Source: a virus (lineage: Duplodnaviria > Caudoviricetes). From it: a DNA stretch of 46,296 nt. The notes beneath the pieces were generated by a model that was given only the letters and a program-made list of their open reading frames with translations, did not search any database and was not told the origin of the DNA. The stretch spans positions 1-46,296 of the IMG/VR virus record IMGVR_UViG_3300012232_000187. The stretch is one strand, 5' to 3'. Positions 1 to 34,817 of the stretch are shown piece after piece; within the stretch, counting starts at the first letter, position 1; each line of letters begins with the position of its first letter. Position numbers and translations under genes: made by a program.

Positions 1-1
1 G

Positions 2-5598: not shown

Positions 5599-5627
5599 AT
5601 GTTTCAACTGCATTCTCAGGAAGATCA

Positions 5628-5831: not shown

Positions 5832-5833
5832 TC

Positions 5834-6181: not shown

Positions 6182-6387
6182 ACTCCGAAACCCGTGCGTT
6201 GATCCTGACTGAACTCATCATCGCTGGATTGAAGAAGCTGGCAGAGATGGGGGCTGTACTCACCAAGTCCCGTGCTGAGGGCCGTGACGTGACCCCTGAG
6301 GAGCTGGCTGCGTTCGACGCCCAGTACGACGCCGCTAGAGCCAAGGGTGACGCGATCCTGAAGGCACTCAACGAAAGTGGCCTTTAG
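6178..6387 (+). CDS. Small helical protein coupled to the lipoprotein
   Basis: ATGA overlap; amphipathic N-terminus. Confidence 0.6.
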   Translation: MNSETRALILTELIIAGLKKLAEMGAVLTKSRAEGRDVTPEELAAFDAQYDAARAKGDAILKALNESGL

Positions 6388-6754
6388 GCTAGGCAAGAGA
6401 TCGAAAGCCAACCTCGTTGGCGTTCATCCTGACCTCGTCAAAGTCGTCGAACTCGCCATCACCTTAACACCCATTGATTTCGTCGTCTTGGAAGGCGTAC
6501 GGAGTCTGGAGCGGCAGCGATCACTTGTTCAGAGCGGTGCAAGCAGAACAATGAAGTCCCGGCATTTAACCGGCCACGCAGTCGATCTAGGGGCTCTTTT
6601 GGACGGTAAGGTGACGTGGCGTACTTCCCTGTATGCAGGGCTCGCGCCACACGTAAAGCAAGCCGCTGCCGACTTGGGGATAGAGATCGAATGGGGAGGG
6701 GATTGGAAGACATTTGTCGATATGCCTCACTGGCAGCTACCCTGGGATAGATAG
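6377..6754 (+). CDS. Endolysin, M15 family L-Ala-D-Glu peptidase
   Basis: LVGVHPDL, EGVRSLERQ, SRHLTGHAVD, WGGDW, DMPHWQL zinc-peptidase motifs. Confidence 0.93.
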   Translation: MAFRLGKRSKANLVGVHPDLVKVVELAITLTPIDFVVLEGVRSLERQRSLVQSGASRTMKSRHLTGHAVDLGALLDGKVTWRTSLYAGLAPHVKQAAADLGIEIEWGGDWKTFVDMPHWQLPWDR

Positions 6755-9700
6755 TGTACATCGCTCCGACTGAGATTCCCGGCCTCGTCATGACGACGGT
6801 GGCGAGGCTGGCAAGATGGCTCCTCTTTGAACTCCAGAAGATCCAGGTTGCTATAGACGAGGTCGCCCCTGAGATCACGCCTGATTCAGGGCTTACCCCT
6901 GGGGCCGATGATGCTGCCGCGTGGGAGGCTGCGCTTGCCTCCGGTGGGCAGATCGACATAGCAGCAGGCACCTACACCTTCACCTCTCGGGTTGACATCC
7001 CCACCAACGTCGGTGACATCGTCCTCAATCCTTTGGGGCCTGTGGTCATCAGGTGGCCGCGCAGTCACCACGCTCTCTCTTTCAACGCCACGGCGAACGT
7101 CGGTTCCGATGTCACCGTCTCAGCGATAGCAGACGACATCACCCATGTAGCTTCCTTTGCCCAGACCTCTACCCGTATTACGGGAGCGTTCTCTGGGTAC
7201 AACATTGGGGACATCTGCCAGATAAAAACCAATGAGACCTGGGGGTCCACAGGTTATTACATGGCGGAGATGTTCGAGGTTCTCTATAACGGGGGAACCT
7301 ACATCATCACCAACCGGAAACTCTTCCACACCTACACTCCGGGGAGTTTCGCTACCACCGTAAGAAGGATCACCTCCCGTCCGAAGCTGACGATAAAGAA
7401 GGGGATTACCTTCATCCCCTCTGACCCTCATACCTCGGTAGTCGTAGGAGACTTCAACTTCGCCGTTCACGTCCAGGGGGCGGTGAGGGCGGATATTGAT
7501 GTCGAGTGCGTCGGTGCCTACGCGGGAGGGATCGTAGCCAACGGCTGTTACGACAGCGACTTCCGGCTCCGGATCAGTAATTGTCGGGTTGACTACCTAA
7601 ACGATTCCTTTGGTTACGGAGTAGTCGAGTTAGGCTGTGGATACGGGAACAGGTTCTGGACCTACGGCAGGGATGCGGGACAGTTAACGAACTGTAACGG
7701 CGTCTCAAGCATGTCCTATGGGTCTCCGTGGCCCCTCCTTGGGGTTCCGCAGGAGACGAACTGGGTTGAGTCTGAAGCCATCTCCGCTAGGACCAATGCC
7801 ATAGGGTGCCACAGAGGGATCAATACTCTATTCAAGAACGTAGTGGTTCGTGGGGCGCATATCACCACGGATGACCGATCATCTCCCCTTGAGACCAATG
7901 CGATGGGGATTTCCCTCGCAGGCGTTGGGGTCAGGTTCGAGAACGTCGATATCTCCGGCGTGAATACCATGCTGAACCTTCGGGATCAGCAGGACATTCA
8001 AACAACGGTCAACTTCGGCACCGTCAACTTCAGGCCCTTCCCGAACGGCTCTACGAGTTACGGTCTGGTAAGGATCAACTCCCTGCAGACCTCCGGCGGG
8101 GCGGCCCCCCGTCCGATAGTCGTTATTGATGACGGGCGCGTAACCATTGCGGACGACTCCTACGCAATGCGCACTTCCATCGAGGACCCGACTCACGACA
8201 ACGGCTACACCCTCATCTGCAACAAGCTCTATGTGGATGGAGGGAGCGGGTTGGTTCTGTACGGGACGACCGGAGCGTCTCTCCAGAACGTCTACATAAA
8301 CCTGCATCAGGTCACTTGGCGCGCTCCCGCTGCTGCCGATGCGGTTGTCGTGGTTAGTGGGACAACGTCCATTTCAGCGGGGGAAAGGCTGCGCATCTGG
8401 GATCTGGACATCGTCAGTGACGACGGTACGAATCCTACTGGCGTAGCCCACCTGACCGGCAACTCCACGATCACGATCCCTTACGGGAAGATCACCAGCA
8501 ACGCGGAGATGACGTGGACACATGGGTCCTCCGGGGCCGGTGCGACGGTCTCCCCAGAGGCCCTTGAGACCACCGATTACCTGCGGGGTAATGTCAAGAG
8601 ATACGGTGCCGTGGGGGATGGCTCCACGGATGATACGGTTGCTATCCAGGCGGCGATTGATAACAACCAGACCGTCTACCTGCCAGAAGGCACGTATGCC
8701 ATCTCGGACACCCTCGTCCTTGACAACGCGCAGTGCATCTATGGGGATGGAAAAAATAATTCCATCATCGACTACTCCGGTGCCGACACCGCAGTCCAGT
8801 TCATCTCTGGCTCTGGAACGGGCACGAGGATCTACGGGTGCAAGGCCCACGACCTCAGAATAACCACCGTCAGTGGGGACACCGGACTTGATCTTGACAG
8901 CGTCAGCGAGGGTGATTTCGAGCGCCTGATAATAGACGGGTTCTCCGTGACTGGTGTTTACCTTCACTCCTCCACCAGTGGCGGGGCGACGTACAACCGC
9001 TTCTTCGATGTCAAGGCCCAGTCAGTCGGCGTGGGTTTCCTTCTGGAGCGGGACGGCGGAGGCACCAGCAGTTATACAAACGACAATACCTTTGTCTCCT
9101 GTCGGGCCAATATCTGCACCACCGGGGTAGAGATCAGTGGCGGAAACCACAACTCTTTCATTCACCCGCAGATAGAGCAATGCACGACCGGGTTTGCCAT
9201 CTCTGAGCCCGCTACTGCGACGTGCAACGCCAACACGATCTCCTTTGCGAGATTTGAAAGCAATACGACAACAGGGACCATCGGCTCCAGTGTCGTCAAT
9301 ACGATCCTCGACCACTATGTAATCATCTCCGGCGGCGCGATTACGGACTCCGGCACGAGAACGCAGTGGGCAGGGATGTACGGCACACAGCAGTACTACC
9401 TGCAGTCCGCCCTGCAGTCGTCAGCAGGCTCCTACAGGTTCGCCCGCACCGCTAACGGAGGCTCAGAGACTCCAGCCTTCGTTGTCTCTGACGACAGCTC
9501 CACCAATAGCCCGGTCACTCTGCAGGTGCTGAATCCGGCCTCTGGCGCGGGCAGTTCGTTCTTCCGGTCTCGCTACGGTGGGGACGCCGGAACGATCAAG
9601 TTTGACATCGAGTGTCCGTCAGGAAAGATCACCGGGCTTGGCACTACCAATGGGCCTACCGGGGCGTTTACCTGTGGAGCAGCGGCAGCGACCACGGTGA

Positions 9701-9891
9701 ACAATACCTGCGTCAGTGCCAACTCCAGAATCTTCCTTGTCGCCGCCGACCCAACAGCAGGAACCCTGACTGGTTCTACCAAGTGCCTTTATATCTCTGC
9801 CAGAACAGCAGCTACTTCTTTTCAGGTGTCCACATCTGATGGAACGGCTGCGGCAGGGACAGAGGTATTCTGGTACTGGATAGTGAACTGA
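6754..9891 (+). CDS. Tailspike/depolymerase with two beta-helix (pectate-lyase-3-like) modules
   Basis: DDAAAWEAAL..IDIAAGTY and NVKRYGAVGDGSTDDTVAIQAAID..VYLPEGTY beta-helix caps; N/G/I-rich coils. Confidence 0.8.
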   Translation: MYIAPTEIPGLVMTTVARLARWLLFELQKIQVAIDEVAPEITPDSGLTPGADDAAAWEAALASGGQIDIAAGTYTFTSRVDIPTNVGDIVLNPLGPVVIRWPRSHHALSFNATANVGSDVTVSAIADDITHVASFAQTSTRITGAFSGYNIGDICQIKTNETWGSTGYYMAEMFEVLYNGGTYIITNRKLFHTYTPGSFATTVRRITSRPKLTIKKGITFIPSDPHTSVVVGDFNFAVHVQGAVRADIDVECVGAYAGGIVANGCYDSDFRLRISNCRVDYLNDSFGYGVVELGCGYGNRFWTYGRDAGQLTNCNGVSSMSYGSPWPLLGVPQETNWVESEAISARTNAIGCHRGINTLFKNVVVRGAHITTDDRSSPLETNAMGISLAGVGVRFENVDISGVNTMLNLRDQQDIQTTVNFGTVNFRPFPNGSTSYGLVRINSLQTSGGAAPRPIVVIDDGRVTIADDSYAMRTSIEDPTHDNGYTLICNKLYVDGGSGLVLYGTTGASLQNVYINLHQVTWRAPAAADAVVVVSGTTSISAGERLRIWDLDIVSDDGTNPTGVAHLTGNSTITIPYGKITSNAEMTWTHGSSGAGATVSPEALETTDYLRGNVKRYGAVGDGSTDDTVAIQAAIDNNQTVYLPEGTYAISDTLVLDNAQCIYGDGKNNSIIDYSGADTAVQFISGSGTGTRIYGCKAHDLRITTVSGDTGLDLDSVSEGDFERLIIDGFSVTGVYLHSSTSGGATYNRFFDVKAQSVGVGFLLERDGGGTSSYTNDNTFVSCRANICTTGVEISGGNHNSFIHPQIEQCTTGFAISEPATATCNANTISFARFESNTTTGTIGSSVVNTILDHYVIISGGAITDSGTRTQWAGMYGTQQYYLQSALQSSAGSYRFARTANGGSETPAFVVSDDSSTNSPVTLQVLNPASGAGSSFFRSRYGGDAGTIKFDIECPSGKITGLGTTNGPTGAFTCGAAAATTVNNTCVSANSRIFLVAADPTAGTLTGSTKCLYISARTAATSFQVSTSDGTAAAGTEVFWYWIVN

Positions 9892-10649
9892 AGTACCGCA
9901 GGCATCTGGTAATTCCGGACACCCAGACTAAACCTGGGGTTCCTGTAGACCATATTGCCGCTGCTGGACGCTACGCTGCAGAAAAGAGACCAGAGGTCAT
10001 CGTCTTCCTAGGCGACCATTGGGACATGCCGTCCCTGTCAGCGTGGGACTCAGCCGCGAAAAAGGCCGAGAACAAAGTCACCTATGAGGCTGACATTGAA
10101 TACGGGAGGAAAGCTCTTGACGGCTTCCTCCGTCCAATACGTGCGGTCAAAGGATACAAGCCGGAACTCCATTTCTGCATCGGCAATCACGAGTTTCGGA
10201 TCTGTCGGTATGTCGATGAAAACCCGATACTCCGCTCGACTCTCTCCCTCTCCGCCCTCGGGCTCGTAGACCGTGGCTTCAAGGTCCATGTATTTCTGCG
10301 ACCTGTCGTTATCGACGGTATAGCCTATGCGCACTATTTCAACGTCTCCTCCAATGGCCGTGTAATGAACTCCAAGCACGGACAGCCATCCGCCAGGGCT
10401 CAGGTCCAGAACGTCGGTATGACTGCTATAGCCGGTCATAAGCAGGGCCTTGACACGTACATCAAGGAATGCCCGGCAGGCAGAATGAGAGGGGTCATAG
10501 CCGGCTCCTTCTATCAGCACGACGAAGAGTATCTAGGCCCACAGGGGAACGCTCATTGGCAGGGGGCGCTATTCCTGCACGAAGCCCACAACGGCGATTT
10601 CGATCTCATGGAGTTGTCTTTAGGCTTCCTACTACGAAAGTACACGTAA
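9888..10649 (+). CDS. Calcineurin-like metallophosphoesterase (probable CTG start)
   Basis: Frame upstream of ATG 10026 encodes HLVIPDTQ and FLGDHWD (motifs I and II); then GNHE, YAH, GHKQ. Confidence 0.88.
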   Translation: MKYRRHLVIPDTQTKPGVPVDHIAAAGRYAAEKRPEVIVFLGDHWDMPSLSAWDSAAKKAENKVTYEADIEYGRKALDGFLRPIRAVKGYKPELHFCIGNHEFRICRYVDENPILRSTLSLSALGLVDRGFKVHVFLRPVVIDGIAYAHYFNVSSNGRVMNSKHGQPSARAQVQNVGMTAIAGHKQGLDTYIKECPAGRMRGVIAGSFYQHDEEYLGPQGNAHWQGALFLHEAHNGDFDLMELSLGFLLRKYT

Positions 10650-12361: not shown

Positions 12362-12781
12362 TCATGGCTTGCGGTACTCATGCGTCAAGCGTCTGGCTCC
12401 GCGAAGCCGGTCGGTCAGCAGGTCAATTTCCCCCAGCGAGTTATCGCTTTCATCGGTAAGGCTTGCCTGCTGCAAGTCGTAGCTGCGCCACGCCTCTATC
12501 ACCCTATCCGCCTCCGCCAATTTGGTGCGCAGGGCGTCGCGCTCGGCTTCCAGTGCGCTGATTTCTGAGGCGGCCCGTTGCAAGGCTCTGGTGAGAAATT
12601 CCGATAAGTCATCCTCCCCGGCATCCGGGGCAGGGGCGGCGAGCGTAGAGCGCAGTGTCTCGATTTTCTCCTGCCGATATGAGGTATAGAACGAGCCTTC
12701 GTATTGAAAGGCGTCCACCACATCCTGCGCGGCCTTGCGTAGCTCCAGCAGCGGTGCCTTCGATTCCGTTCTGTCGGTCAT
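12362..12781 (-). CDS. Hypothetical early protein, paralogue of 12990-13304
   Basis: LRKAAQDVVD..GSFY..LAAPAPDAGED shared; ATGA coupling. Confidence 0.7.
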   Translation of the reverse strand: MTDRTESKAPLLELRKAAQDVVDAFQYEGSFYTSYRQEKIETLRSTLAAPAPDAGEDDLSEFLTRALQRAASEISALEAERDALRTKLAEADRVIEAWRSYDLQQASLTDESDNSLGEIDLLTDRLRGARRLTHEYRKP

Positions 12782-13289
12782 GGTTTGGCCTCCGGGAAAA
12801 TGACAGCCCGCAATGCTTTGTAGTATTCCAGCCGTGCCCGCTCTTGCGCCATGTGCGAGTCGTGGTCGGCAACTACGCCTGACACGGACAGGACTCCGCG
12901 CAGTTGAGTAATGCAGTCCATCAGCGGCTGAGCGTCATCGTCCCGCATATCCTTTTCCAGCACGACGACAAGTGAATGGAATCGGTCTGTCACGTCTGCT
13001 TCCCCTCTCGGGCCTCGCGGGTGAGGGCTTGCGCCTTGTCACGTTCGCCAAGAGCATCCTCGTAAGCTGCTTGGTAGTAGGCGAGGTCCGCACTGATGGC
13101 GCGGATACGGGCTGCTGCACGATTCTGGCCGTATAGTTCAAGCGCCACGCACAGCGCCTCATCCTCCCCGGCATCCGGGGCAGGGGCGGCGAGGGCTTCG
13201 CGTAGCGCGTTCAATTTCTCGATGCGATAGGTGACGTAGAACGAGCCTTGATACTGCTCGCAGTCCACCACATCCTGCGCGGCCTTGCG
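12609..13289. repeat. 131-bp imperfect direct repeat (12609-12739 and 13159-13289) with identical 35-bp and 27-bp ends
   Basis: Direct comparison; constant 550-bp offset. Confidence 0.9.
12778..12993 (-). CDS. Hypothetical protein
   Basis: 4-nt overlaps with both neighbours; VVLEKDMRDDDAQ..RGVLSV. Confidence 0.7.
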   Translation of the reverse strand: MTDRFHSLVVVLEKDMRDDDAQPLMDCITQLRGVLSVSGVVADHDSHMAQERARLEYYKALRAVIFPEAKP

Positions 13290-13304
13290 GAGTGCGTCGG
13301 TCAT
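12990..13304 (-). CDS. Hypothetical early protein, paralogue of 12362-12781
   Basis: Shared N-terminal 45 aa; RBS GGAAGGGA. Confidence 0.7.
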   Translation of the reverse strand: MTDALRKAAQDVVDCEQYQGSFYVTYRIEKLNALREALAAPAPDAGEDEALCVALELYGQNRAAARIRAISADLAYYQAAYEDALGERDKAQALTREAREGKQT

Positions 13305-16345: not shown

Positions 16346-16351
16346 GTGCCT

Positions 16352-16379
16352 ACTATAAAGCATTGCTTGTGGCTGTCAA
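16352..16379 (-). promoter_or_regulatory. Leftward sigma70 promoter (pL-like)
   Basis: TTGACA (16379-16374), 16 nt, TATAGT (16357-16352). Confidence 0.75.
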
Positions 16380-16393
16380 GCGGTAATTTAGAC

Positions 16394-16422
16394 TTGACAA
16401 CCAACAAGGGTTCCTTTATGGT
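16394..16422 (+). promoter_or_regulatory. Rightward sigma70 promoter (pR-like)
   Basis: TTGACA (16394-16399), 17 nt, TATGGT (16417-16422). Confidence 0.8.
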
Positions 16423-16429
16423 GGCAGCC

Positions 16430-16633
16430 ATGAGTGTATTGAATGAAGTTCTCAAAGAGGTGCCCCAAGGCGAACTTGCCCGGAGACTCGGTATAACGTC
16501 GCAGGCGATCACCGGGTGGGTAAGGGCGGGCAGGGTACCGGTTCAGCGAGTTCTGGCCGTAGAGGCCATTACAGGCGTCTCTAGACACAAGCTACGTCCT
16601 GATGTATACCCCGAGGAGACTCGGGCTCACTAG
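16430..16633 (+). CDS. cro: Cro-like (YdaS-type) HTH repressor
   Basis: QGELARRLGITSQAITGW..VP..RVLAVE..TGVSRHKLRPDVY; first gene after the rightward promoter. Confidence 0.88.
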   Translation: MSVLNEVLKEVPQGELARRLGITSQAITGWVRAGRVPVQRVLAVEAITGVSRHKLRPDVYPEETRAH

Positions 16634-17367: not shown

Positions 17368-17847
17368 ATGTCTTTCGCAGAGTTCTGGACTTTGTACCCT
17401 CGGAAAGTAGCGCGCCTCAACGCAGAGAAGGCTTGGACTAAGGCGAAAGGAGACCAGATTGGCGACAGAATCCTTGCCGGACTCAAGCGACAACTACCCG
17501 GATGGACTGACCCTCGATTCATTCCCCACCCTGCTTCATGGCTCAACGCAGGACGCTGGGATGACCAACTCCATGTTGATGTTCGACCAGGCACTGAAAA
17601 GGCTGCTCCACGACCCGCAGAAGCAGACTGGAAACAACCATGCGCATGGAAAGCCATGATGAATGTCTGGATGTTCCGGATTCACTGGCAGAAGAAGGAT
17701 TTAACCCTCGACCAGCTAAGAGCAATGGCAAAGGAACGTGATCGCCTTGCCAAACAATGCTTGGAGATGTGGGGGCCTGAGATACCTCAGGAGAGGGACA
17801 TCGAGGTACTAGGCGGAATGTTCGACCGCTTGAGGGCGATGGCATGA
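17368..17847 (+). CDS. Replication-associated protein (C-terminal domain type of phage replisome organisers)
   Basis: FAEFWTLYPRKV....AEKAW and FIPHPASWLNAGRWDD motifs; no N-terminal HTH. Confidence 0.7.
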   Translation: MSFAEFWTLYPRKVARLNAEKAWTKAKGDQIGDRILAGLKRQLPGWTDPRFIPHPASWLNAGRWDDQLHVDVRPGTEKAAPRPAEADWKQPCAWKAMMNVWMFRIHWQKKDLTLDQLRAMAKERDRLAKQCLEMWGPEIPQERDIEVLGGMFDRLRAMA

Positions 17848-19025: not shown

Positions 19026-19421
19026 GTGCGCGATGAGCTGGAAACACTCCTCACCCAATGGGGTAATTACCATGCTCGCCGTTGGTTTGACCGTGGCTAC
19101 CCAACCCGCTCTGTCTTTGCTTCTCTTACCGATCCCCACTACTTCAACCCAGGGCATAGAGTCTTGTACGATAGACCTCCCTGGCTGGCACCCATCGACC
19201 GCATGGTCTCCCGGATACCGAAGCCCGACAGGGATGCCCTGACTATTCGATACTGCCTGCCACCAATAGACGGCAAGCTATTGTCGGAGCGCCAAATAGC
19301 GGGTTATCTGGGCATTAGCCGATCTTGTTACAGGCAACGATTATATCGTGCGCGCAGGGTATTGACAGACGCGCCCAAAGTATGTTACAAGACTCTAGCG
19401 TGGGTTTCTGTCCCTGCATAA
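19026..19421 (+). CDS. Late-gene regulator, antitermination Q / sigma region-4-like
   Basis: LLTQWG..IDRMVSRIP...ALTIRY..ERQIAGYLGISR..Y..RLYRAR; last middle gene. Confidence 0.75.
   Translation: MRDELETLLTQWGNYHARRWFDRGYPTRSVFASLTDPHYFNPGHRVLYDRPPWLAPIDRMVSRIPKPDRDALTIRYCLPPIDGKLLSERQIAGYLGISRSCYRQRLYRARRVLTDAPKVCYKTLAWVSVPA
19362..19391 (+). promoter_or_regulatory. Possible late promoter (pR'-like)
   Basis: TTGACA at 19362 at the end of the Q-like gene; -10 is weak (TGTTACAAG). Confidence 0.35.
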
Positions 19422-19425
19422 TCCT

Positions 19426-19878
19426 ATAGACATCAACACCCTTCCGGCTCTCCAGCCCGGCGATCCCGCCCGATATCCTGCTCTAGCCAACGCCGACAAG
19501 GCGTCCAAGCGCACGCTCACGAAGTTCCTGACCAGTCTCCAGAAGGGATTGGGCCTGCAGACTGCGTGTTCTTTGGCTGGCATCAGTCCCGAGACCATGA
19601 ACCGCTGGAGGGATGCTGACGAAGCATTTGCAGGGGACATAGAAGAGGCTGCTGCGAGCTTCATCCAGGCCAATGTAGAGGCAATACAGGCCGAACCTGA
19701 TTGGAAGGCTAAAGCATGGCTACTCAAGTCTTCACCAGTAAGCAAAGGACAATGGGGCGAACAGAAGAGCCAGGGCGGAACACAGGTCAACATCATGCTG
19801 GGGATAAGCAGAGACGACGGCATCACCCTGGAGAACGATGCACCATCAATACAGACGAGTACGCTGAGGCCATTGTGA
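19426..19878 (+). CDS. Terminase small subunit-like HTH protein (start uncertain: ATA 19426 or TTG 19549)
   Basis: FLTSLQKG..TACSLAGISPETMNRWRDADEAF..IEEA, DWKAKAWLL, QVNIML; first late gene. Confidence 0.65.
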   Translation: MDINTLPALQPGDPARYPALANADKASKRTLTKFLTSLQKGLGLQTACSLAGISPETMNRWRDADEAFAGDIEEAAASFIQANVEAIQAEPDWKAKAWLLKSSPVSKGQWGEQKSQGGTQVNIMLGISRDDGITLENDAPSIQTSTLRPL

Positions 19879-20037: not shown

Positions 20038-20162
20038 AGTGTGCAGTCTGCGGGGTAAGCCTAGGCCACTATGCTTCGAAGTGGGTCAAGGGCTTAGTGG
20101 CTCTGTGTTTCAAGCATCCGCCAAAGGACGAGTCAGAGTGGACTTACTACACAGATGGCTAA
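20034..20162 (+). CDS. Small Cys/His protein
   Basis: MKCAVC..CFKH. Confidence 0.5.
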   Translation: MKCAVCGVSLGHYASKWVKGLVALCFKHPPKDESEWTYYTDG

Positions 20163-20478
20163 TGCGATGACACTCGACGAACTCAATGAGAGCGCACACA
20201 AAGCCCTTGAGGACTGGGAGAGAGCCAGGAAGGGCGTAGAGACGCCAGAGCAGGCAAAGCAAGCTATGGAGCATGTAGAGCGTTACATAGCCTTGCATGA
20301 CCGCATGACCATAGCCAAGCTGAACAAGGGCCTGAAGGCGTTAGGCGGCAATACAGTGGCTCTCGTCCTAAGCGTGAGTGCATCACCGCTAGAGCAAGGG
20401 AGTATGCAATCTCCCCCGATTGTTCCACGTGAAACATGGGAGGACAGTGCTGAAGCGGGTGAGAGGCCTGAGGCATGA
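20155..20478 (+). CDS. Hypothetical protein (contains parS in its 3' end)
   Basis: Open frame in operon; IVPRET is the translation of the parS palindrome. Confidence 0.6.
   Translation: MANAMTLDELNESAHKALEDWERARKGVETPEQAKQAMEHVERYIALHDRMTIAKLNKGLKALGGNTVALVLSVSASPLEQGSMQSPPIVPRETWEDSAEAGERPEA
20421..20436. promoter_or_regulatory. parS: parS centromere site (ParB binding)
   Basis: TGTTCCACGTGAAACA, 15/16 to the canonical TGTTTCACGTGAAACA. Confidence 0.8.
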
Positions 20479-20506
20479 TGCACTGCACTCTCAGGAATGG
20501 TCACGT

Positions 20507-20519
20507 TAAGCCCTTGATT
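20507..20519 (-). promoter_or_regulatory. IHF consensus site
   Basis: AATCAAGGGCTTA fits WATCAANNNNTTR. Confidence 0.6.
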
Positions 20520-20544
20520 CGCAAGGCAATGACGCTGCTAGACC

Positions 20545-20572
20545 ATGCGACATAATAGCGGTTATGCGCAAT
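20545..20572 (-). other. dif: dif-like XerC/XerD recombination site
   Basis: ATTGCGCATAA-CCGCTA-TTATGTCGCAT versus E. coli dif GGTGCGCATAA-TGTATA-TTATGTTAAAT (9/11 and 8/11 arms, 6-bp spacer); intergenic. Confidence 0.75.
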
Positions 20573-20588
20573 CCACAGGTTATCCACA
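20569..20588 (+). promoter_or_regulatory. DnaA box TTATCCACA (20580-20588) with a degenerate tandem copy 11 bp upstream
   Basis: CAATCCACAGG-TTATCCACAGG. Confidence 0.55.
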
Positions 20589-20636
20589 GGGAGAAACCGA
20601 CGGGTCCCATCGGGTCGAGGGTGGTCGCGAAGGCGC

Positions 20637-20864
20637 ATGCCTCCCCGCCGACAGATGACTGAAAAAATTAAAACCCTCCGCGAAGAGCTTGAGGCCAACT
20701 GGGGCAACGCCACTCCAGTCCCTACGGTCTGGTGGGCTCCCATGGGAAGGGCATGGATCAAGGCTAAGTACTTGTTTTGGCGGGCAAGATTCAGGTATTT
20801 CCCGTATCGTCCTACTCATTGGGATCACTGGGAAGAACCGGACCTTTCCAGGCTGGAAAAATGA
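20637..20864 (+). CDS. Hypothetical Trp/Arg-rich protein
   Basis: Open frame only. Confidence 0.45.
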   Translation: MPPRRQMTEKIKTLREELEANWGNATPVPTVWWAPMGRAWIKAKYLFWRARFRYFPYRPTHWDHWEEPDLSRLEK

Positions 20865-20917
20865 AAAGTAAAAACCCCAATGAAATCAACATACACACCC
20901 CGTAAAACCGGAGACTT

Positions 20918-21094
20918 GTGTTGATCGAGAATCAAGGACTTAACGCGGGTTCCCTGACCCTGAAGACCTCCTCAGGTCGGGTGATTACCTTAGCGGTGGA
21001 GGTTGAAGAGGATGATGGGCTTGCCGTCTACATCGACAACGGAGAACTCTTGTTCCGGATTCATGAGAATCGAGGCAGCGATCGGCCCCTCTGA
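20918..21094 (+). CDS. 58-aa hypothetical protein
   Basis: GGAGA RBS plus GTG; MLIENQGLNAGSLTLKTSSGRVITLAVEVEEDDGLAVYIDNGELLFRIH... Confidence 0.5.
   Translation: MLIENQGLNAGSLTLKTSSGRVITLAVEVEEDDGLAVYIDNGELLFRIHENRGSDRPL
20930..20942 (+). promoter_or_regulatory. IHF consensus site, inverted partner of 20507-20519
   Basis: AATCAAGGACTTA fits WATCAANNNNTTR. Confidence 0.6.
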
Positions 21095-23241: not shown

Positions 23242-24141
23242 GTGAGAGCACTGATAACCGGAGTCTGTGGTCAGGATGGGTACTACCTCGCACAGACTCT
23301 CATCGAGAAAGGCTACAAGGTTTACGGTGGCTACAGAGGGAGGATCCCCGACTTTGGGGTTGATCCTGTTCCGATCGAGATGTCGGACTTTGAGAGCGTT
23401 TCAAGAGCCGTAAGATCCTGTCAGGTAGATGAAGTCTATAACTTGGCAGGAGCATCATCAGTAGGGCGAAGCTTCAACTCTCCCTACTACACCCAATCCG
23501 TAAACGGCGACGGGTGCGTCAGAATCCTTGAGGTCTTACGGGGGTCGAGGATAAGACTGTTCCAGGCATCTTCTTCGGAGATGTTTGGATCAGCAACTCT
23601 CCCCCAAAACGAGCGTACTCCCTTCGCTCCGCGGTCTCCTTATGGAGCTTCCAAAGTCTACGCTCACCAGATGAGCCAGATGTACCGCGAAGCCTACGGA
23701 GTAAGAGTCTCCTGCGGGATCATGTTCAGCCATGAATCCCCAAGAAGAGGCACGGAGTTCGTTACCAGGAAGATCACCTACGGTCTGGCGAACTACGGGA
23801 AGGTGACTCTGGAGAACCTTGACGCTCAGAGAGACTGGGGCCACGCGAGAGACTACATGGAAGCCGCCTGGATGATGCTCCAGAGAGATCCAGATGACTT
23901 TGTCATAGGGACTGGGGAAACCCATTCGGTTGGTGATTTTCTGACGGAGGCTATGATTCATCTTGGCGGCGAAGCGGTGGTCAATGAACGTCACCGTCCG
24001 CTGGAGGTCTCCGAGTCGCGGGCGGACATTACTAAAGCGTTAATCCACCTCGACTGGAAGCCCACGGTGGGATTCCGAGAGCTGGTCAGAGAGATGTGTG
24101 AAGCAGACCAAGCGCAAGCAAGCTCTTCTCGGGCTGCCTGA
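23242..24141 (+). CDS. gmd: GDP-mannose 4,6-dehydratase
   Basis: ALITGVCGQDGYYL, EVYNLA, QASSSEMFG, PRSPYGASK, HESPRRG.EFVTRKI, RDWGHA.DY. Confidence 0.93.
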   Translation: MRALITGVCGQDGYYLAQTLIEKGYKVYGGYRGRIPDFGVDPVPIEMSDFESVSRAVRSCQVDEVYNLAGASSVGRSFNSPYYTQSVNGDGCVRILEVLRGSRIRLFQASSSEMFGSATLPQNERTPFAPRSPYGASKVYAHQMSQMYREAYGVRVSCGIMFSHESPRRGTEFVTRKITYGLANYGKVTLENLDAQRDWGHARDYMEAAWMMLQRDPDDFVIGTGETHSVGDFLTEAMIHLGGEAVVNERHRPLEVSESRADITKALIHLDWKPTVGFRELVREMCEADQAQASSSRAA

Positions 24142-24733
24142 CATTGAATGGGAGTGGCCCCACGACGACAGCGTTCTCTGGAAAGCCGCTCCCCAGGTTT
24201 CCTTCGTTGCTGAAGTCCTCACTCACGTCCCCGGTAGACGGCTTGCCATCCAAGCGGGATCTGGAGGCGGGGTCTACCCCGTCCGTCTCGCACTGGAGTT
24301 TGAGCGGGTGTTCACCTTTGAGGTTGAGCAGAGAAACATTACTGCCTGCAAAGAGAACTTCCGCGAGTACCCGAACATCACCCTGATCGAAGCGGCGGTA
24401 GGTAAAGACCACCGCAAGAGAAAATTCATCAGCGGTGGCGCTAACTCAGGGGCTGGTTACCTTGATGGGCTCGGTGAAATCCCCACGGTGAGGATAGACG
24501 ACTACGGGCTCAATCCAGATTTGATCTGGCTGGACATCCAGGGCCACGAGCCAGAAGCCATCGAAGGGGCGATGGACACCATCAGACGGTGCCACCCCGC
24601 GGTGGTTCTTGAGCAAGAAATGATCGCCTACATGAAAAACTGGGGTTTCAATGCGGATACAGCCGGGCAGATGCTGGTCCAGGAGGGTTACACCCAGAAA
24701 GCCAAGGGCGGGCACGATGTCCTATGGACATAA
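24098..24733 (+). CDS. FkbM-family SAM methyltransferase
   Basis: IQAGSGGGVY..VFTFE, DLIWLDIQGHE..AIEGA..TI..HPAVVLE. Confidence 0.85.
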   Translation: MKQTKRKQALLGLPDIEWEWPHDDSVLWKAAPQVSFVAEVLTHVPGRRLAIQAGSGGGVYPVRLALEFERVFTFEVEQRNITACKENFREYPNITLIEAAVGKDHRKRKFISGGANSGAGYLDGLGEIPTVRIDDYGLNPDLIWLDIQGHEPEAIEGAMDTIRRCHPAVVLEQEMIAYMKNWGFNADTAGQMLVQEGYTQKAKGGHDVLWT

Positions 24734-26175
24734 TCCTTCCCTACACGGCGCAACCCCGTCAGCAGGTCTTACATCGTGCCAAGGCGGGAAACATCCTCTA
24801 CGGCGGTGCCGCGGGCGGTGGGAAATCTATTGGAGTCCGGTGGGACTTAATAGATTTCTGCCTTAACTGCCCGAACCTGTTTGCTCTGCTGCTGCGGCGA
24901 CAATACCAGCAGTTGAGAAACAATCACATCGTCCAGATGCAACAGCAACTCCCTAAAGAGCTTGCAACCTGGAACGAGTCGAACTCCGAGTTCCGCTTCT
25001 ACAACGGGGCACGGATGATCTGCAGACATCTTGAGCATGAAAAGGATGTTGAGGACATCCAGGGATGGGAAGTTCATATCTGTGGAGTGGATGAGGCTGC
25101 TCAGTTCACTCCCTACCAGTTGAACTACATCCAATCCCGAATGAGATTGGGTGACTACAGAAACTTCCTTGAGAAGGAAGCGGCGAAGAATCCAAAGATT
25201 CTGCCCTTCCTGAAGAGACTCCCCCGTCTGGTGATGGGATCTAACCCTGGTGGTGAGTCTCACAACTACCTCAAGGACAACTATGTAACAGCAGCACCTC
25301 CCGAGGAAGAGTTCACTGACGACGATGGGCGAAGTTATATTTTTATCCCTGCCACCATGCGGGATAACAAGTACATCGACAAGAACTACGAGGCTCAATT
25401 CAGAGACCTCCCAGAGTTCCAGAGGAAGCAACTTGTCGAAGGGGATTGGAACACAGTCGCAGGAGCCTACTTCGACTGCTTCTCCACGCTGGAGCACGTT
25501 ATCCCTCCCCTCCACCTGCCGTCGCACTGGACCCGATTCCGCTCTATGGACTGGGGCTACCGACAGCCGTTCGCGATCTATTGGTACGCCGTGGCGGACG
25601 AAACGCCAGTCCTTGCGAAGGATGGCTCTACGTATAAGTTCGATGAAGGCACTCTCATCCTCTACCGAGAGTGGTACGGAGTCCAGCCAGCCGAGAAACG
25701 CGGATGGACTATGAAGGGCTTGAGGATCGACCCTGAAGAGGTGGCACGAGGTGTTCTGGAACGAGAGATCGGAGAACAAGTGGCGTACGGCGTTGCAGAC
25801 CCTTCGTGTTGGAGGTCCGACGGAAGCCCTTCAGTTGCTCAAAAGATGGCCGAAGAAGGGGTTCACTGGCAGAGGGCGTCAAACGAAAGAGCCCTTGGCT
25901 CGACCATCCTCTACCAACGAATCGCGGCCAACAAGTTCTTCGTTTCTGCTAACTGCGAGCATCTCATCCGAACCCTACCCATAGTGGAGACGGACGAGAA
26001 GAAACCGGAAGAATATTTGAAATGTGGTTACGACCACGGGGTTGACTCTGTGAGATACGGAGCAGCCTCGCGACCGAAGGTGAACATCACCCCGATCAAA
26101 GAGAAGGGGATGAAGATGCCTTCCCTGAATGACCTGATGAAACCCGTATATCGAGACACAAGGAATTGGATCTAG
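24724..26175 (+). CDS. terL: Terminase large subunit
   Basis: Walker A YGGAAGGGKS, Walker B GVDEA, SNPGG, nuclease SMDWGY, ADPS, DHGVDSVRY. Confidence 0.95.
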   Translation: MDIILPYTAQPRQQVLHRAKAGNILYGGAAGGGKSIGVRWDLIDFCLNCPNLFALLLRRQYQQLRNNHIVQMQQQLPKELATWNESNSEFRFYNGARMICRHLEHEKDVEDIQGWEVHICGVDEAAQFTPYQLNYIQSRMRLGDYRNFLEKEAAKNPKILPFLKRLPRLVMGSNPGGESHNYLKDNYVTAAPPEEEFTDDDGRSYIFIPATMRDNKYIDKNYEAQFRDLPEFQRKQLVEGDWNTVAGAYFDCFSTLEHVIPPLHLPSHWTRFRSMDWGYRQPFAIYWYAVADETPVLAKDGSTYKFDEGTLILYREWYGVQPAEKRGWTMKGLRIDPEEVARGVLEREIGEQVAYGVADPSCWRSDGSPSVAQKMAEEGVHWQRASNERALGSTILYQRIAANKFFVSANCEHLIRTLPIVETDEKKPEEYLKCGYDHGVDSVRYGAASRPKVNITPIKEKGMKMPSLNDLMKPVYRDTRNWI

Positions 26176-31392: not shown

Positions 31393-32325
31393 GTGATTCG
31401 CGATTCGGAAGGTAACGAAGTAGCGGTAAACAAGGTTCAGAAGTTCGGGGCCAAGTGCGTAAAGGGTCCTTCAGAACTGATCCGACACATGAGGTACGCC
31501 TTTTCCAAAGGCTATCTCACCTTACAGAAGATCCCTGCGCACGACGGGGAAGCGATTCTCTGCGGTGCGGGACCATCCCTCGCAGACAATCTCGACACGA
31601 TAAGGGAGTTACAGAGTAAGGGTCACCTGGTCTGCGCTATCAAGAGCGCCCATGACTTCCTGATGGAGAACGGTATCCGTCCACATATGGCGGTAGCTGT
31701 AGATCCTCAGGAGAAGATCGCTGACCTTTACAAGAAGCCGGGGTATGGAATCAGGTACTTCATGGCGACTCAGTGTCATCCAGCAGTCTTTGACGCGCTG
31801 AAAGGCTACAAGGTCGTCACCTGGAACATCTATACCAAGTCGGTGAAAGAGTACTGGGAAAAGCACTTCAAGAAGAAGGGACAAAACCGCACATTATTTT
31901 TTGTAAACGGCGGGTCTACGTCCGGCTTGAGGTGCATTTCTCTGGCGTGGATCATGGGCTATCGAAGGCTTCACCTATTCGGGTATGACTCGTGCCTGAA
32001 GACGCCCGAAGGCGAGGACATCACGGTAGAGCAGATGGAGGGTGCCGATCTGAAGATTGGCGGCGTGAAGAACAAGAAAGAAGTTATGGCGATTGATGCA
32101 GACGAGAGACGGTTCTACTGCGACCCCGCGATGGCTTTGCAGGCCAATGAGTTCCTGCCGCAGGTAGAACACATGCCTGACATCAGGATCAAGGCCTACG
32201 GGAAGGGGTTGATCCCGTGGATAGTCGAGCGGGCAGCACTGCGGAACATGGATCAGTGCCGGATGATAGATGAGGACTGGGATGTTGACTCGCCACGTCG
32301 CGGGTCTCTTGACCTAATCAAATGA
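31393..32325 (+). CDS. Maf/DUF115 (MptE-like) family putative glycosyltransferase
   Basis: AILCGAGPSL, VAVDP, ATQCHP, GGSTSGLRCISLAWIMGYRRLHLFGYDS. Confidence 0.8.
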   Translation: MIRDSEGNEVAVNKVQKFGAKCVKGPSELIRHMRYAFSKGYLTLQKIPAHDGEAILCGAGPSLADNLDTIRELQSKGHLVCAIKSAHDFLMENGIRPHMAVAVDPQEKIADLYKKPGYGIRYFMATQCHPAVFDALKGYKVVTWNIYTKSVKEYWEKHFKKKGQNRTLFFVNGGSTSGLRCISLAWIMGYRRLHLFGYDSCLKTPEGEDITVEQMEGADLKIGGVKNKKEVMAIDADERRFYCDPAMALQANEFLPQVEHMPDIRIKAYGKGLIPWIVERAALRNMDQCRMIDEDWDVDSPRRGSLDLIK

Positions 32326-33002
32326 TCGTAGTCACCACCTTCCCGGATAACGCCTGGGAAGTGTACGCGAAGAGGTTCCTTGAGACTTACACAGAGTTCT
32401 GGCAGTACCCACTCCATGCCTTTGTGGATAAGGTGCCTGACTTCAGTCATCCGCTTGTTACTTTCCATACTGATTTTAGCGCGCATCCTGACGTGGCTTG
32501 GTTCCGAAAGACTGCGCCAAGGGATGAACTGGACTACCGGAAAGACGCCCAGCGATGGGTCTTCAAGGTCATCGCCCAGTGCGAGGGAATCAAGTTTGAC
32601 AAGCAGATGATCTGGCTGGACGCAGACGTAGTTACGTTTGCCAAACCCGACCACGAGTGGCTGGAGCGAACCTGCAGAGAACACCCCATCACCTATCTCG
32701 GTAGGAAGGGTGGACATTCCGAGACAGGCTTCATCATGTACAACGCCTCTTACCCTGCAGTTGTGGATTTCTTTACCAACTTCAGGGAGGAGTACACGAA
32801 GAAGAAACTCTACGGCTACAACCACTGGACTGACTGTCACGTCTTCGACAGGTTACGCCAGGGGATTGAGTGCCTGAACCTCTCGCCCTACGGGAGGAGT
32901 GTGAACCACGTCTGGCCGTCTACCAAGCTAGGCGACTGGATGGATCATCTGAAGGGGAACCGCAAGTTCATTGGGGAGTCCCCTGAAAGAATAGCGATGT
33001 GA
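32322..33002 (+). CDS. GT-A fold glycosyltransferase
   Basis: DAQRWVFKV, IWLDAD (DxD), SETGF, WTDCHVFD, HLKGNRK. Confidence 0.82.
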   Translation: MIVVTTFPDNAWEVYAKRFLETYTEFWQYPLHAFVDKVPDFSHPLVTFHTDFSAHPDVAWFRKTAPRDELDYRKDAQRWVFKVIAQCEGIKFDKQMIWLDADVVTFAKPDHEWLERTCREHPITYLGRKGGHSETGFIMYNASYPAVVDFFTNFREEYTKKKLYGYNHWTDCHVFDRLRQGIECLNLSPYGRSVNHVWPSTKLGDWMDHLKGNRKFIGESPERIAM

Positions 33003-33592
33003 GCAAGCACTGCCAGTTCAACGAAGAACAACACATCCTGGAGTTCTTTGAGAAGTACGGGTGGGGCAACAGGATTCTCTGCGACATCGGGGCGAGGCTG
33101 GAGTATTCCAACACTGCCAGACTGATTGAGGAGTACCAGTTCAACGGGGTTCTCGTTGACATGAACGACAAGCACTGTCGGGTCCTCAAGCATCACCTCC
33201 CCAGAGCGAACGTCATCACGGCCAAGGTGGGTGTTGACAACATCAATGCCATCGTTCCTTCCCCGTGTGACTTACTTTCGATAGACATCGACAGCAACGA
33301 TGCGTGGATATTCCTGAACCTGCTGTCAAGGCCGCGGTTGGTCATCATTGAAGCCCTGGACTTCGATGAGCTGTTCATGGCTCCTTACTCCCTGAGTGAG
33401 ACCAAGGGAAGCTGGGGCACCTCAGAGAAGGCGATTACCGAGTTCGCGAGGATGAAGGGCTACCGCGTAGCCGGGAAGACGGGAGTCAACCTCTTCCTGG
33501 TGGACGAGTCCTGCGACTTCTCCTTTGAGAGCGACTGCGTCAGACCGGCCCTGATACCTGACAGAAGCCTCAACGTCCTGAGGTCCAAGTGA
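32999..33592 (+). CDS. SAM-dependent methyltransferase (FkbM-like)
   Basis: QFNEE, CDIGA..SNT, DLLSIDIDSND, PRLVIIE, KGY..TGVNLFLV. Confidence 0.8.
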   Translation: MSKHCQFNEEQHILEFFEKYGWGNRILCDIGARLEYSNTARLIEEYQFNGVLVDMNDKHCRVLKHHLPRANVITAKVGVDNINAIVPSPCDLLSIDIDSNDAWIFLNLLSRPRLVIIEALDFDELFMAPYSLSETKGSWGTSEKAITEFARMKGYRVAGKTGVNLFLVDESCDFSFESDCVRPALIPDRSLNVLRSK

Positions 33593-34179
33593 GTACGACA
33601 GATCGGTACCTGCCGCTGTTCGCTCTGTGCGAGAAGTTAGACCCCCAGTCGATTCTTGAGATAGGCACGAACATGGGGTTTTCAGCGGTCAACATGATCC
33701 TGAACTCCAACGCCACGCGGTATGTTGGGTTTGACCTCTTTGAAGACGCGACAGATGAGACCGATGACAAGGAGATGAACGCCAAGCCTCGTCCGGTCAT
33801 GGACGATGTCGAGGCACTGTTGAAGTCGTACACCAAGGCTAGCGTCCTGTTGGTGAAGGGCGACACGAACCTGACTCTCCCCCAGTTCCTGAAGACCGGA
33901 GAGAAGTTCGACTTCGCCTTCATTGACGGTGGTCATTCGGTCGAGACGATACGGAACGACTGGCACTACGTCAGGAAGATGATGAAGCCCGATGGGAGCG
34001 TGGTGTTCGATGACTACTACCACAACCGCGAAGGGGTGGGGTGCAAGGAGGTTATCCGGGACCTCCCGTTTACGCTGTCCCCGGTGGGATTCAAAGTCAA
34101 GAAGACCGGGATGATTATTTCGATGGCTGTGGTCCAGATGAAGGACCTGAAAGAGATTGAGTGCTTAGGGTATTTATAG
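33589..34179 (+). CDS. Class I SAM methyltransferase (Methyltransf_24-like)
   Basis: ILEIGTNMGFSA, GFDLF, DFAFIDGGHS..DW, VVFDDY. Confidence 0.88.
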   Translation: MSTTDRYLPLFALCEKLDPQSILEIGTNMGFSAVNMILNSNATRYVGFDLFEDATDETDDKEMNAKPRPVMDDVEALLKSYTKASVLLVKGDTNLTLPQFLKTGEKFDFAFIDGGHSVETIRNDWHYVRKMMKPDGSVVFDDYYHNREGVGCKEVIRDLPFTLSPVGFKVKKTGMIISMAVVQMKDLKEIECLGYL

Positions 34180-34817
34180 GTTGGGATGAGAATGAGATTG
34201 AGGCGTACCACGTCCTGTCTCACTCCATCATCAGGCATGCGTCCGCTCCGGTATCAATAACCCCGCTGAAGCTCTCCCAAGAGCCCATGTGGCGGGACAG
34301 AGACCCGAAGCAGTCTACGGAGTTCTCGTTCTCCAGGTTCCTCGTTCCCTCTCTATGCAACTACGAGGGCCACGCCTTATTCATGGACTGCGACATGATG
34401 GTCACGAGAGACATCGTGGAGTTGTTCCAGTGCGCCAACGAGCGGTACGCGCTCCAGTGCGTTAGACACCAGTACATCCCGAGGACTTTAACCAAGTTCT
34501 TAGGGCAACAGCAGTCGGTGTACGAACGCAAGAACTGGTCGGCGGTGATGTTGTTCAACAACACCCGCTGTCGTCAGTTGACACCGCAGTACGTCAATAC
34601 CGCTTCGGGAAGGGACCTGCACCAGTTCAAGTGGTTGCACGATTCTGAGATCGGATTCATACCGGGAACGTGGAACTTCCTTGTCGGAGAGTACGACAAG
34701 CCCCCATCGGTCCCGGCGAATATCCACTGGACCATCGGTGGTCCGTGGTTCCCTGACTACAAAGACACAGACTATGCGGACCTCTGGTTCGCAGAAAGGA
34801 AGATGATTCATGGCTGA
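34161..34817 (+). CDS. GT-A (GT8-like) glycosyltransferase
   Basis: VFIGWD, STEFSFSRFLVP, ALFMDCDM (DxD), RKNWSAVMLFN, WNFLVG, HWTIGGPW. Confidence 0.88.
   Translation: MLRVFIGWDENEIEAYHVLSHSIIRHASAPVSITPLKLSQEPMWRDRDPKQSTEFSFSRFLVPSLCNYEGHALFMDCDMMVTRDIVELFQCANERYALQCVRHQYIPRTLTKFLGQQQSVYERKNWSAVMLFNNTRCRQLTPQYVNTASGRDLHQFKWLHDSEIGFIPGTWNFLVGEYDKPPSVPANIHWTIGGPWFPDYKDTDYADLWFAERKMIHG

What the first reader, a model, noticed from the sequence alone, without database searches (positions are those of the whole stretch)
20421..20944. Cluster of host chromosome-maintenance sites (parS + dif + DnaA + IHF) in an integrase-less phage
Seen: within about 520 bp between terS and terL lie a parS palindrome, a dif-like site, a perfect DnaA box with a tandem degenerate copy and two inverted IHF consensus sites; the first four elements fall within 170 bp. 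Seen: no integrase, CI, ParA/ParB, helicase or primase gene was recognised. Established: ParB, XerCD, DnaA and IHF are host segregation, dimer-resolution, initiation and bending factors. Inference: the phage may use a protein-free cis cassette mimicking a mini-chromosome, to be localised, replicated, monomerised or integrated by host machinery, or to titrate those factors near the packaging origin.
Basis: partly seen in the sequence, partly recalled or inferred. Interest (0 to 1): 0.88.

Follow-up and report, generated by a model that had tools for sequence, protein, structure and literature searches.

The report
Host chromosome signals at phage end
Between its two DNA-packaging genes this phage carries close matches to four bacterial chromosome-handling signals, and the core pair (a site like the chromosome-untangling site dif plus a DNA-bending site) recurs just upstream of the packaging motor gene in many unrelated tailed phages, which likely borrow the host's XerC/XerD enzyme to close or untangle their own genome at its predicted end.

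Summary
The motifs are real. parS, an IHF site, a 28-bp dif-like site and a DnaA box lie within 168 bp between terS and terL, far beyond chance.

The conserved core is IHF + dif next to a GC-rich/A-tract patch; in phage phiM5 such a patch marks the annotated end of the terminal repeat. Exact dif matches in viral contigs had terL nearby in 38 of 78 loci, always downstream of the site, and rarely carried the chromosomal centre (1/38 against 16/40 elsewhere). parS and DnaA boxes recur in the same zone as optional extras.

The phage has its own replication initiator and a Cro/CI-like repressor, so the 'mini-chromosome origin' reading fails; integration at host dif is unlikely.

Best reading (about 0.4): host XerCD, aided by IHF, recombines the two end-repeated dif copies to circularise or monomerise the genome, like Cre/loxP without a phage recombinase. 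Host proteins shaping or shielding the end are close rivals.

No binding, genome end or phenotype is shown, and this phage's XerD arm is degenerate. Ten literature searches found no report. This scan noted similar DnaA/IHF/dif clusters before in other phages.

The parts
19549..19878 (+). terminase small subunit (open frame from 19399; true start not fixed)
   Evidence: phrog_4102/4044, E 1e-6; homologues upstream of terL in relatives
20155..20478 (+). orphan 107-aa ORF whose 3' end contains parS
   Evidence: no homologue other than itself
20421..20436 (.). parS palindrome (host ParB site; optional element of the end zone)
   Evidence: exact match to recalled consensus, unique; 5e-5 expected; parS upstream of terL in 15 of 80 random viral parS loci, downstream in 1
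20507..20519 (-). IHF consensus site 1, 32 bp from the dif core, about one helical turn beyond the commonest spacing (21) of this orientation class
20545..20572 (-). dif-like site: XerC arm 20562-20572 (near canonical), centre CCGCTA 20556-20561, degenerate XerD arm 20545-20555 (lacks conserved A25)
20569..20577 (+). degenerate DnaA box (7 of 9), overlapping the outer XerC arm
   Evidence: a similar degenerate-plus-perfect pair follows a dif with the same centre in L151/L180
20580..20588 (+). perfect DnaA box (optional element)
20611..20669 (+). GC-rich patch (78% over 40 bp) followed by an A-tract: predicted packaging-end zone (inferred by analogy with phiM5; lacks the C6 run seen in most relatives)
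20930..20942 (+). IHF consensus site 2, inverted to site 1, 358 bp beyond dif; less certain member
   Evidence: 0.45 expected per genome; further IHF matches follow dif in L215, L450, L461, L469
24724..26175 (+). terminase large subunit
   Evidence: phrog_979/phrog_2, Pfam Terminase_3/6N
17368..17847 (+). phage replication initiation protein (context: argues against the cassette being the origin)
   Evidence: phrog_9474/270, E 1e-15
16346..16633 (+).
   Evidence: PF01381 E 3e-5, below the family cut-off; phrog_35 E 1.5e-13

Best explanation
This stretch carries parS, IHF, dif-like and DnaA motifs in the zone predicted to be the phage's packaging end, and its conserved core, a phased IHF site plus a dif-like site, likely lets host XerC/XerD recombine the two copies that would sit in the virion's end repeat, so closing the injected DNA into a circle or cutting replicative multimers back to monomers. 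Step 1 (shown): the motifs exist, and the IHF-dif pair recurs upstream of terL in many phages, with preferred spacings. Step 2 (inferred from phiM5): packaging ends just past the GC-rich/A-tract patch, so a terminal repeat or redundancy of 250 bp or more would duplicate the cassette at both ends. Step 3 (inferred): XerCD binds both copies, and IHF bending stands in for the accessory proteins of cer/psi or for FtsK; the centre need only match itself, which fits its variability. The result would be a Cre/loxP equivalent without a phage recombinase. Step 4 (inferred, weaker): parS and the DnaA box are interchangeable add-ons that would load ParB or DnaA on the circle or on the entering end, to position or segregate it. 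I put 0.85 on a genuine host-protein docking zone at the packaging end and about 0.4 on Xer self-recombination as its main job.
For: Exact dif pattern, no IHF asked: 38 of 78 unique flanked viral loci have terL within 4 kb, all 38 with the site upstream of terL. IHF-like sites lie within 70 bp in 17 of 38, against 0 of 38 in windows 220-290 bp away. The centre is TGTATA in 1 of 38, against 16 of 40 loci without terL. IHF+dif pattern: about 620 stretches against about 260 for the reversed pattern; 38 of 73 unique loci have terL, all with the element upstream, against 1 of 64 controls. Xer-arm letters outside the searched pattern are conserved. Spacers peak at 21 (20 of 33 D-C sites) and at 20, 26-28 and 37 (C-D); the control is flat. 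terL relatives chosen by protein alone: dif score >=14 in 8 loci upstream (499 kb) and 0 downstream (536 kb) among 174. A C6/G6 run lies within 400 bp in 30 of 37 loci. phiM5's annotated 357-bp terminal repeat holds the 3' part of the ORF upstream of terL (terS by position), an IHF-like site and the C-run, and ends about 35 bp after it. GenBank phage C72C1 has terS-IHF-dif-C-run-terL. Tyrosine integrase: 1 of 9 near-complete element-bearing records against 6 of 9 terL relatives picked as lacking a strong dif. Precedent: Cre circularises P1-packaged linear DNA that carries two lox sites (PMC2841073, passages).
Against: No phage with mapped ends and a dif inside the repeat was found: phiM5 has the IHF-like site but no dif; T5 4400-10600, the phiEco32 right end and the LUZ24 left end have none; only 1 of 17 GenBank regions had a dif upstream of terL. 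This phage's end is unmapped: a source-run contig runs through the cassette, and the window lacks the C6 run. Its XerD arm lacks A25, which is highly conserved in proteobacterial dif (PMC2731167) and present in 35 of 36 phage sites. Related phages carry parS alone, DnaA alone or an IHF-like site alone in this zone, which fits 'any tight host binder' better than recombination. Only 8 of 174 terL relatives show a dif, though many are short or have terS abutting terL. dif centres also differ between bacterial species, so variable centres do not exclude host matching. The Xer review has no mention of IHF (0 occurrences).
Confidence: 0.42

Rival explanations
1. Packaging architecture: IHF, XerCD, ParB and DnaA serve only as tight, sequence-specific binders that bend or delimit the DNA where terminase cuts or where the terminal repeat is copied; no recombination takes place.
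For: The binders are interchangeable at one position: parS upstream of terL in 15 of 80 viral parS loci against 1 downstream; IHF-like only in phiM5; DnaA only in HTVC010P; parS only in vB_OspP_OH. A satellite-like island with its own integrase carries IHF-dif-G-run far from the likely chromosomal dif. IHF's role at lambda cos and P1 pac is recalled, not checked here.
Against: Both Xer arms, the 6-bp centre and its terminal A (33 of 36) are kept, and dif-bearing phages mostly lack an integrase; cooperative binding alone could explain the first point but not obviously the second.
Confidence: 0.25
2. Entry or end protection: the cassette lies on the last-packaged, first-ejected end, and host proteins binding there anchor or ratchet the DNA in, or mask the end from nucleases and end-sensing defences.
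For: The position is just upstream of the predicted end. DnaA boxes in T5's first-entering repeat, with an anchoring model, are described in 10.1101/866236 (abstract and section 15; three perfect boxes seen). Ejection order is recalled from lambda.
Against: It does not explain the phased IHF-dif spacing or the avoidance of the chromosomal centre; the T5 model is itself untested.
Confidence: 0.15
3. IMEX-type lysogeny: the dif-like site is an attP that host XerCD inserts at the chromosomal dif, replacing an integrase.
For: No recombinase in the window but a repressor-like HTH. The good XerC arm with a degenerate XerD arm resembles TLC and GGI attP (PMC5357621). Integrase is scarce in dif-bearing phages.
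Against: TLC and GGI keep a centre homologous to host dif, whereas terminase-linked sites rarely have TGTATA (1 of 38 against 16 of 40). The IHF+dif pattern occurred in 7 of 802 bacterial genomes; the one convincing case is in an integrase-coding island 2.6 Mb from the likely chromosomal dif, and no split attL/attR form was seen. The host, and so its dif centre, is unknown.
Confidence: 0.1
4. Mini-chromosome origin or titration sink: the cassette replicates the phage through DnaA and IHF, or soaks up host factors.
For: A perfect and a degenerate DnaA box 11 bp apart beside IHF sites.
Against: There is one perfect box and no AT-rich unwinding stretch (it is followed by a 78% GC patch); the phage has its own initiator; DnaA boxes are rare beside terminase-linked dif (3 of 38); each site is single-copy.
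Confidence: 0.05
5. Chance, or a phage repressor operator that only resembles dif.
For: Short motifs; the XerD arm is degenerate; a repressor is encoded.
Against: Score 23.4 against a maximum of 15.0 in 60 resampled genomes, and parS expected at 5e-5; same position and phasing as in many other phages; the site is not repeated near the repressor gene.
Confidence: 0.03

Closest known systems
Plasmid Xer resolution sites cer (ColE1) and psi (pSC101)
   Same: An extrachromosomal element carries a site for host XerCD, with neighbouring DNA for host accessory proteins, predicted to act on its own copies (PMC5357621, passages).
   Different: Here it sits on a tailed phage at the predicted packaging end; the adjacent site is IHF-like rather than about 180 bp of PepA/ArgR or ArcA DNA; both orientations of dif occur relative to IHF.
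Phage P1 loxP/Cre circularisation of packaged DNA
   Same: A tyrosine-recombinase site present twice on the packaged linear DNA allows circularisation on entry (PMC2841073, passages on P1-packaged BAC DNA; the native P1 role is recalled).
   Different: No phage recombinase here; the predicted enzyme is host XerCD; duplication of the site is inferred, not shown.
IMEX (CTX, VGJ, TLC, gonococcal genetic island)
   Same: A dif-like site on an element without integrase; a degenerate XerD arm as in TLC and GGI.
   Different: The IMEX named there are filamentous phages, satellites or islands that insert at host dif and keep centre homology; the terminase-linked sites mostly do not, and no integrated form was found.
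parS sites of Bacillus phage phi29
   Same: Host-type parS on a phage without par genes, used with host Spo0J/ParB (PMC2731898, abstract and passages).
   Different: phi29 has five dispersed sites serving spore entrapment; here one site lies beside the predicted end, next to IHF, dif and DnaA.
DnaA boxes of the T5 injection-stop region
   Same: Host DnaA boxes in a terminal repeat, thought not to be an origin (10.1101/866236).
   Different: T5 has paired arrays in a 10-kb repeat with no dif, IHF consensus or parS in the stretch scanned; that paper mentions neither Xer nor parS.

Membership tests
dif (XerC/XerD) site | two 11-bp arms in partial dyad symmetry around a 6-bp centre | tested here: met
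   20545-20572; 5 mismatches to recalled E. coli arms; matrix score 23.4
dif (XerC/XerD) site | well-conserved XerD arm including A25 | tested here: not met
   position 25 is G in the window; A in 35 of 36 other phage sites
dif (XerC/XerD) site | non-coding location | tested here: met
   between ORF 20155-20478 and ORF 20637-20864 on the coding strand
dif (XerC/XerD) site | binding and recombination by XerC/XerD | not testable with these tools
   needs EMSA and a resolution assay
IMEX | no element-encoded recombinase | tested here: met
   PF00589 and PF00239 absent in six frames; record 86% complete
IMEX | attP centre homologous to host dif | tested here: inconclusive
   host unknown; as a class, 1 of 38 terminase-linked sites has TGTATA
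IMEX | integrated copies at chromosomal dif | tested here: inconclusive
   none found in 802 genomes searched with the IHF+dif pattern; the sample may not include the host group
cer/psi-type plasmid resolution site | core Xer site plus about 180 bp of PepA/ArgR or ArcA accessory DNA | not tested
   no ArgR/ArcA scan made; the adjacent conserved site is IHF-like
parABS partition system | parS consensus palindrome | tested here: met
parABS partition system | element-encoded ParA and ParB | tested here: not met
   no ParB_N in six frames; no ParA among 70 ORFs scanned; so it can only use host ParB
oriC-like DnaA-dependent origin | several DnaA boxes plus an AT-rich unwinding element | tested here: not met
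   one perfect and one 7/9 box, followed by a 78% GC patch
direct terminal repeat / pac region | virion DNA ends map here | tested here: inconclusive
   only contigs were available; one runs through the cassette; analogy with phiM5

The most novel reading that the evidence does not exclude
Hundreds of mostly integrase-less tailed phages have put a host dif site, activated by a phased IHF site, into their terminal repeat, so that host XerCD circularises the incoming genome without RecA or any phage protein; parS and DnaA boxes are plug-in extras that hand the new circle to the host's segregation and origin machinery, and satellites copy the same end module.
Probability: 0.33. Interest if true: 0.9.

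Novelty: new variant of a known kind. Interest (0 to 1): 0.72.

Why it matters
How phages with short terminal repeats and no recombinase close or monomerise their DNA after entry is poorly known. A dif site at the predicted end gives a one-mutant test (xerC, xerD or ihf hosts). It would extend Xer exploitation from filamentous phages, islands and plasmids to the lytic cycle of common aquatic tailed phages: about 730 viral stretches hold the exact dif pattern, and about half of the sampled ones lie upstream of terL. Even under the rival readings, the IHF-dif-C-run module would be a sequence marker for genome ends in uncultured phages, and its arms and parS could help to assign hosts.

Tried and rejected
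Co-occurrence around random viral parS sites: no enrichment of dif, DnaA or IHF (124 near windows against 109 controls). parS+IHF at the window's spacing: 2 hits, neither with terL or dif. Close relatives covering the cassette: none; the 74% terL relative starts downstream of it, and terS and the parS-bearing ORF have no close homologues. blastn of the cassette and of one related element against GenBank phages gave only short chance-level or parS-only matches. Terminus mapping: only contigs were available; no break at the cassette; depth falls from 10.8 (contig over about 13-29 kb) to 7.5 and then 3.8-6.2 (40-46 kb), a per-contig figure too weak to use. Runs X2 and X3 hold only small shares and give no evidence. 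Contig ends near the element: 13 of 111 against 4 of 98 controls (p 0.07), and C-runs can break assemblies; not used. The 55-bp repeat holding parS in vB_OspP_OH may be an assembly overlap (SPAdes; the passages seen report no end mapping); not counted as a mapped end. dif was not found in T5 4400-10600, the phiEco32 right end or the LUZ24 left end. Promoter/terminator scan: at chance level. A separate ParA family search, structure predictions and an RNA family search were not run.

Full report
What is there. The window is a viral record of 46,296 bases, 86% complete. It encodes terS (19549-19878), terL (24724-26175), portal, major head protein and an SU10-type adaptor, plus Sak, SSB, a NinG-like nuclease and a replication initiation protein at 17368-17847. 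A Cro/CI-like HTH repressor lies at 16346-16633. No tyrosine recombinase, resolvase or ParB_N domain was found in six frames. Both contig ends fall in open frames of a repetitive virion-type protein on the same strand, so the missing part likely lies within one gene. The motif consensuses used (parS, DnaA, IHF, dif) are recalled.

parS is at 20421-20436, IHF at 20507-20519, the dif-like site at 20545-20572, a 7/9 and a perfect DnaA box at 20569 and 20580, and a second IHF match at 20930. parS and dif are unique in the genome and the two IHF matches are the only ones. In 60 Markov-resampled genomes parS never appeared and the best dif score was 15.0, against 23.4 here; IHF (0.45 per genome) and DnaA (0.27) are common enough that only their position matters. 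The XerC arm is near canonical. The XerD arm lacks A25, which PMC2731167 (passages) calls highly conserved and which 35 of 36 other phage sites keep.

The four sites are not conserved as one unit. Around 134 random viral parS loci, dif, DnaA and IHF were no commoner than in control windows. parS plus IHF at the window's spacing gave 2 hits, without terL or dif. No close relative covers the cassette.

The conserved core is IHF + dif upstream of terL; three tests show this. First, terL relatives chosen by protein alone: among 174 loci, 8 had a dif score of 14 or more within 5 kb upstream of terL (499 kb examined) and none downstream (536 kb). At a cut-off of 12 the counts are 9 and 1; one locus without a terL hit was left out. 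In L215, L238 and L274 the site directly follows the stop of terS or of the ORF at that position.

Second, an IHF+dif pattern matched about 620 viral stretches, against about 260 for the reversed pattern. Of 73 unique flanked loci, 38 had terL within 4 kb, always with the element upstream (30 IHF-dif-terL, 8 dif-IHF-terL); the control gave 1 of 64. PHROGs called about 24 of 42 first large downstream ORFs terminases and showed at least three terS families upstream. Xer-arm letters outside the pattern are conserved. Spacers peak at 21 in the XerD-first class (20 of 33) and at 20, 26-28 and 37 in the other class. The window is XerD-first with 32, about one turn beyond 21.

Third, an exact dif pattern without IHF matched about 730 stretches. 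Of 78 unique flanked loci, 38 had terL, all downstream of the site. IHF-like sites lay within 70 bp in 17 of 38, against 0 of 38 farther out. The centre TGTATA occurred in 1 of these 38 but in 16 of the 40 loci without terL. Caveats for all three tests: the loci are related, about 12 contigs are shared between the second and third sets, terL queries came partly from the second set, and the control loci are AT-richer. The one-sided position (upstream only) does not depend on those biases.

parS and DnaA are optional tenants of the same zone. Of 80 random viral parS loci, 15 lay upstream of terL, 1 downstream and 2 inside, often beside C/G runs. Near terminase-linked dif sites, parS was found in 0 of 37 and 0 of 38 loci, and a perfect DnaA box in 3 of 37 and 3 of 38. 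Of 42 dif+DnaA loci, 5 were upstream of terL, 1 downstream and 1 inside. Among 17 GenBank phage regions, C72C1 (host not given) had terS-IHF-dif-C-run-terL; phiM5 had an IHF-like site only; vB_OspP_OH had parS only; HTVC010P, HTVC106P and Venkman had a DnaA box; P26218 and VA-RY-3 had a distant IHF match; 9 had nothing upstream. I saw no other phage with all four exact motifs; L215 has dif, IHF and a 2-mismatch parS-like site.

Where the zone lies. A C6/G6 run occurs within 400 bp of the element in 30 of 37 loci (one distant, AT-rich locus of the 38 was dropped), and an A/T tract follows the GC peak in 27 of 37. In phiM5 the annotated 357-bp terminal repeat contains the 3' part of the ORF upstream of terL, an IHF-like site and such a C-run, and ends about 35 bp later. 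The window has a 78% GC patch at 20611-20650 and an A-tract at 20662, but no C6 run. I infer that the cassette lies just inside the right end or terminal repeat. This is not shown: only contigs were available and one runs through the cassette. No phage with mapped ends and a dif in its repeat was found.

Mechanism. A recombination site in a terminal repeat is present twice in the virion. Cre closes P1-packaged linear DNA that carries two lox sites (PMC2841073, passages). XerCD acts on plasmid cer/psi with accessory benders and on some IMEX without FtsK (PMC5357621, passages; that review does not mention IHF). I therefore think it most likely (0.42) that host XerCD, with IHF as accessory, recombines the phage's own two copies to circularise or monomerise the genome. 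A self-matching centre fits the variability seen. Tyrosine integrase was present in 1 of 9 near-complete element-bearing records against 6 of 9 terL relatives picked as lacking a strong dif (2 of 22 against 8 of 20 virus records overall; hand-picked sets; p about 0.05; one record of each set was not held). No large serine recombinase was found in 20 element-bearing records.

Rivals. Host proteins may only shape or delimit the packaging end (0.25). This is favoured by the interchangeability of binders, and by a satellite-like island in G767 that has its own integrase yet carries IHF-dif-G-run 2.6 Mb from the likely chromosomal dif. Entry aid or end shielding, as proposed for T5's DnaA boxes (10.1101/866236; abstract, section 15 and passages), gets 0.15. 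IMEX-type integration gets 0.10: the degenerate XerD arm recalls TLC and GGI, but those keep centre homology, and the pattern was in only 7 of 802 bacterial genomes (controls 2), one convincing, none split. dif centres vary between species and the host is unknown, so this stays open. An origin or titration role gets 0.05, chance or an operator 0.03.

Novelty. Each ingredient has a precedent: Xer use by plasmids and IMEX, parS in phi29 (PMC2731898; abstract and passages), and DnaA boxes in T5. Ten full-text searches gave no report of dif at the packaging end of tailed phages. Of the papers listed I read passages only of PMC7139368, PMC5357621, PMC2731167, PMC2841073 and PMC10783043; the rest I saw as listings. 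Subscription journals are largely missing from the library, and the supplements of the T5 preprint were closed and may bear on T5. IHF at lambda cos and P1 pac, and ejection order, are recalled. Earlier notes of this scan describe DnaA/IHF/dif clusters in giant phages and parS at a phage end; they are leads, not support.

Verdict. A real, recurrent host-protein docking module at the predicted packaging end, of which this phage has an unusually full set. It is a new variant of Xer exploitation; its function is untested. Interest 0.72.

Noticed in passing
G767:C1:399405-399470 (L627, L631, L632): IHF-dif-G-run module inside a chromosomal island with integrase, Prim-Pol/DUF3987 primase and restriction-modification-like cargo, far from the likely chromosomal dif: possibly a phage satellite copying the helper's end module.
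   Followed up: partly
window 23242-24733 and 31393-34817: Sugar-modification genes within the virion module: GDP-mannose dehydratase, FkbM-type and other methyltransferases, a family-8 glycosyltransferase and an MptE-like protein; suggests virion glycosylation.
   Followed up: no
window 45522-46296 and 1-5329: Both contig ends are in open frames with Ig-like-looking repeats (my reading, no family hit), the left one continuing into a 1699-aa ORF with a GHL15 domain; probably one giant virion protein broken by assembly.
   Followed up: partly
window 12609-12742 and 13159-13292: 134-bp direct repeat, 78% identical, 550 bp apart in the leftward early region.
   Followed up: no
window 19026-19421: 131-aa protein with a sigma-70 region 4 HTH directly upstream of terS; looks like a Q-type late regulator (the resemblance is recalled).
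   Followed up: no
L151/L180 and L149/L190: Larger phages without terL nearby: L151 has a dif with the same CCGCTA centre and the same degenerate-plus-perfect DnaA pair as the window; L149 has several dif-like sites with many DnaA boxes and IHF sites.
   Followed up: partly
L613:14-29 (vB_OspP_OH) and L610, L619 (HTVC010P, HTVC106P): Cultured phages suited to tests: a parS-like site about 190 bp before the C-run in an Ochrobactrum phage; DnaA boxes upstream of terL in two pelagiphages.
   Followed up: partly
Viral-contig collection: About 7,900 viral stretches hold an exact parS; roughly a fifth of those sampled lie upstream of terL.
   Followed up: partly
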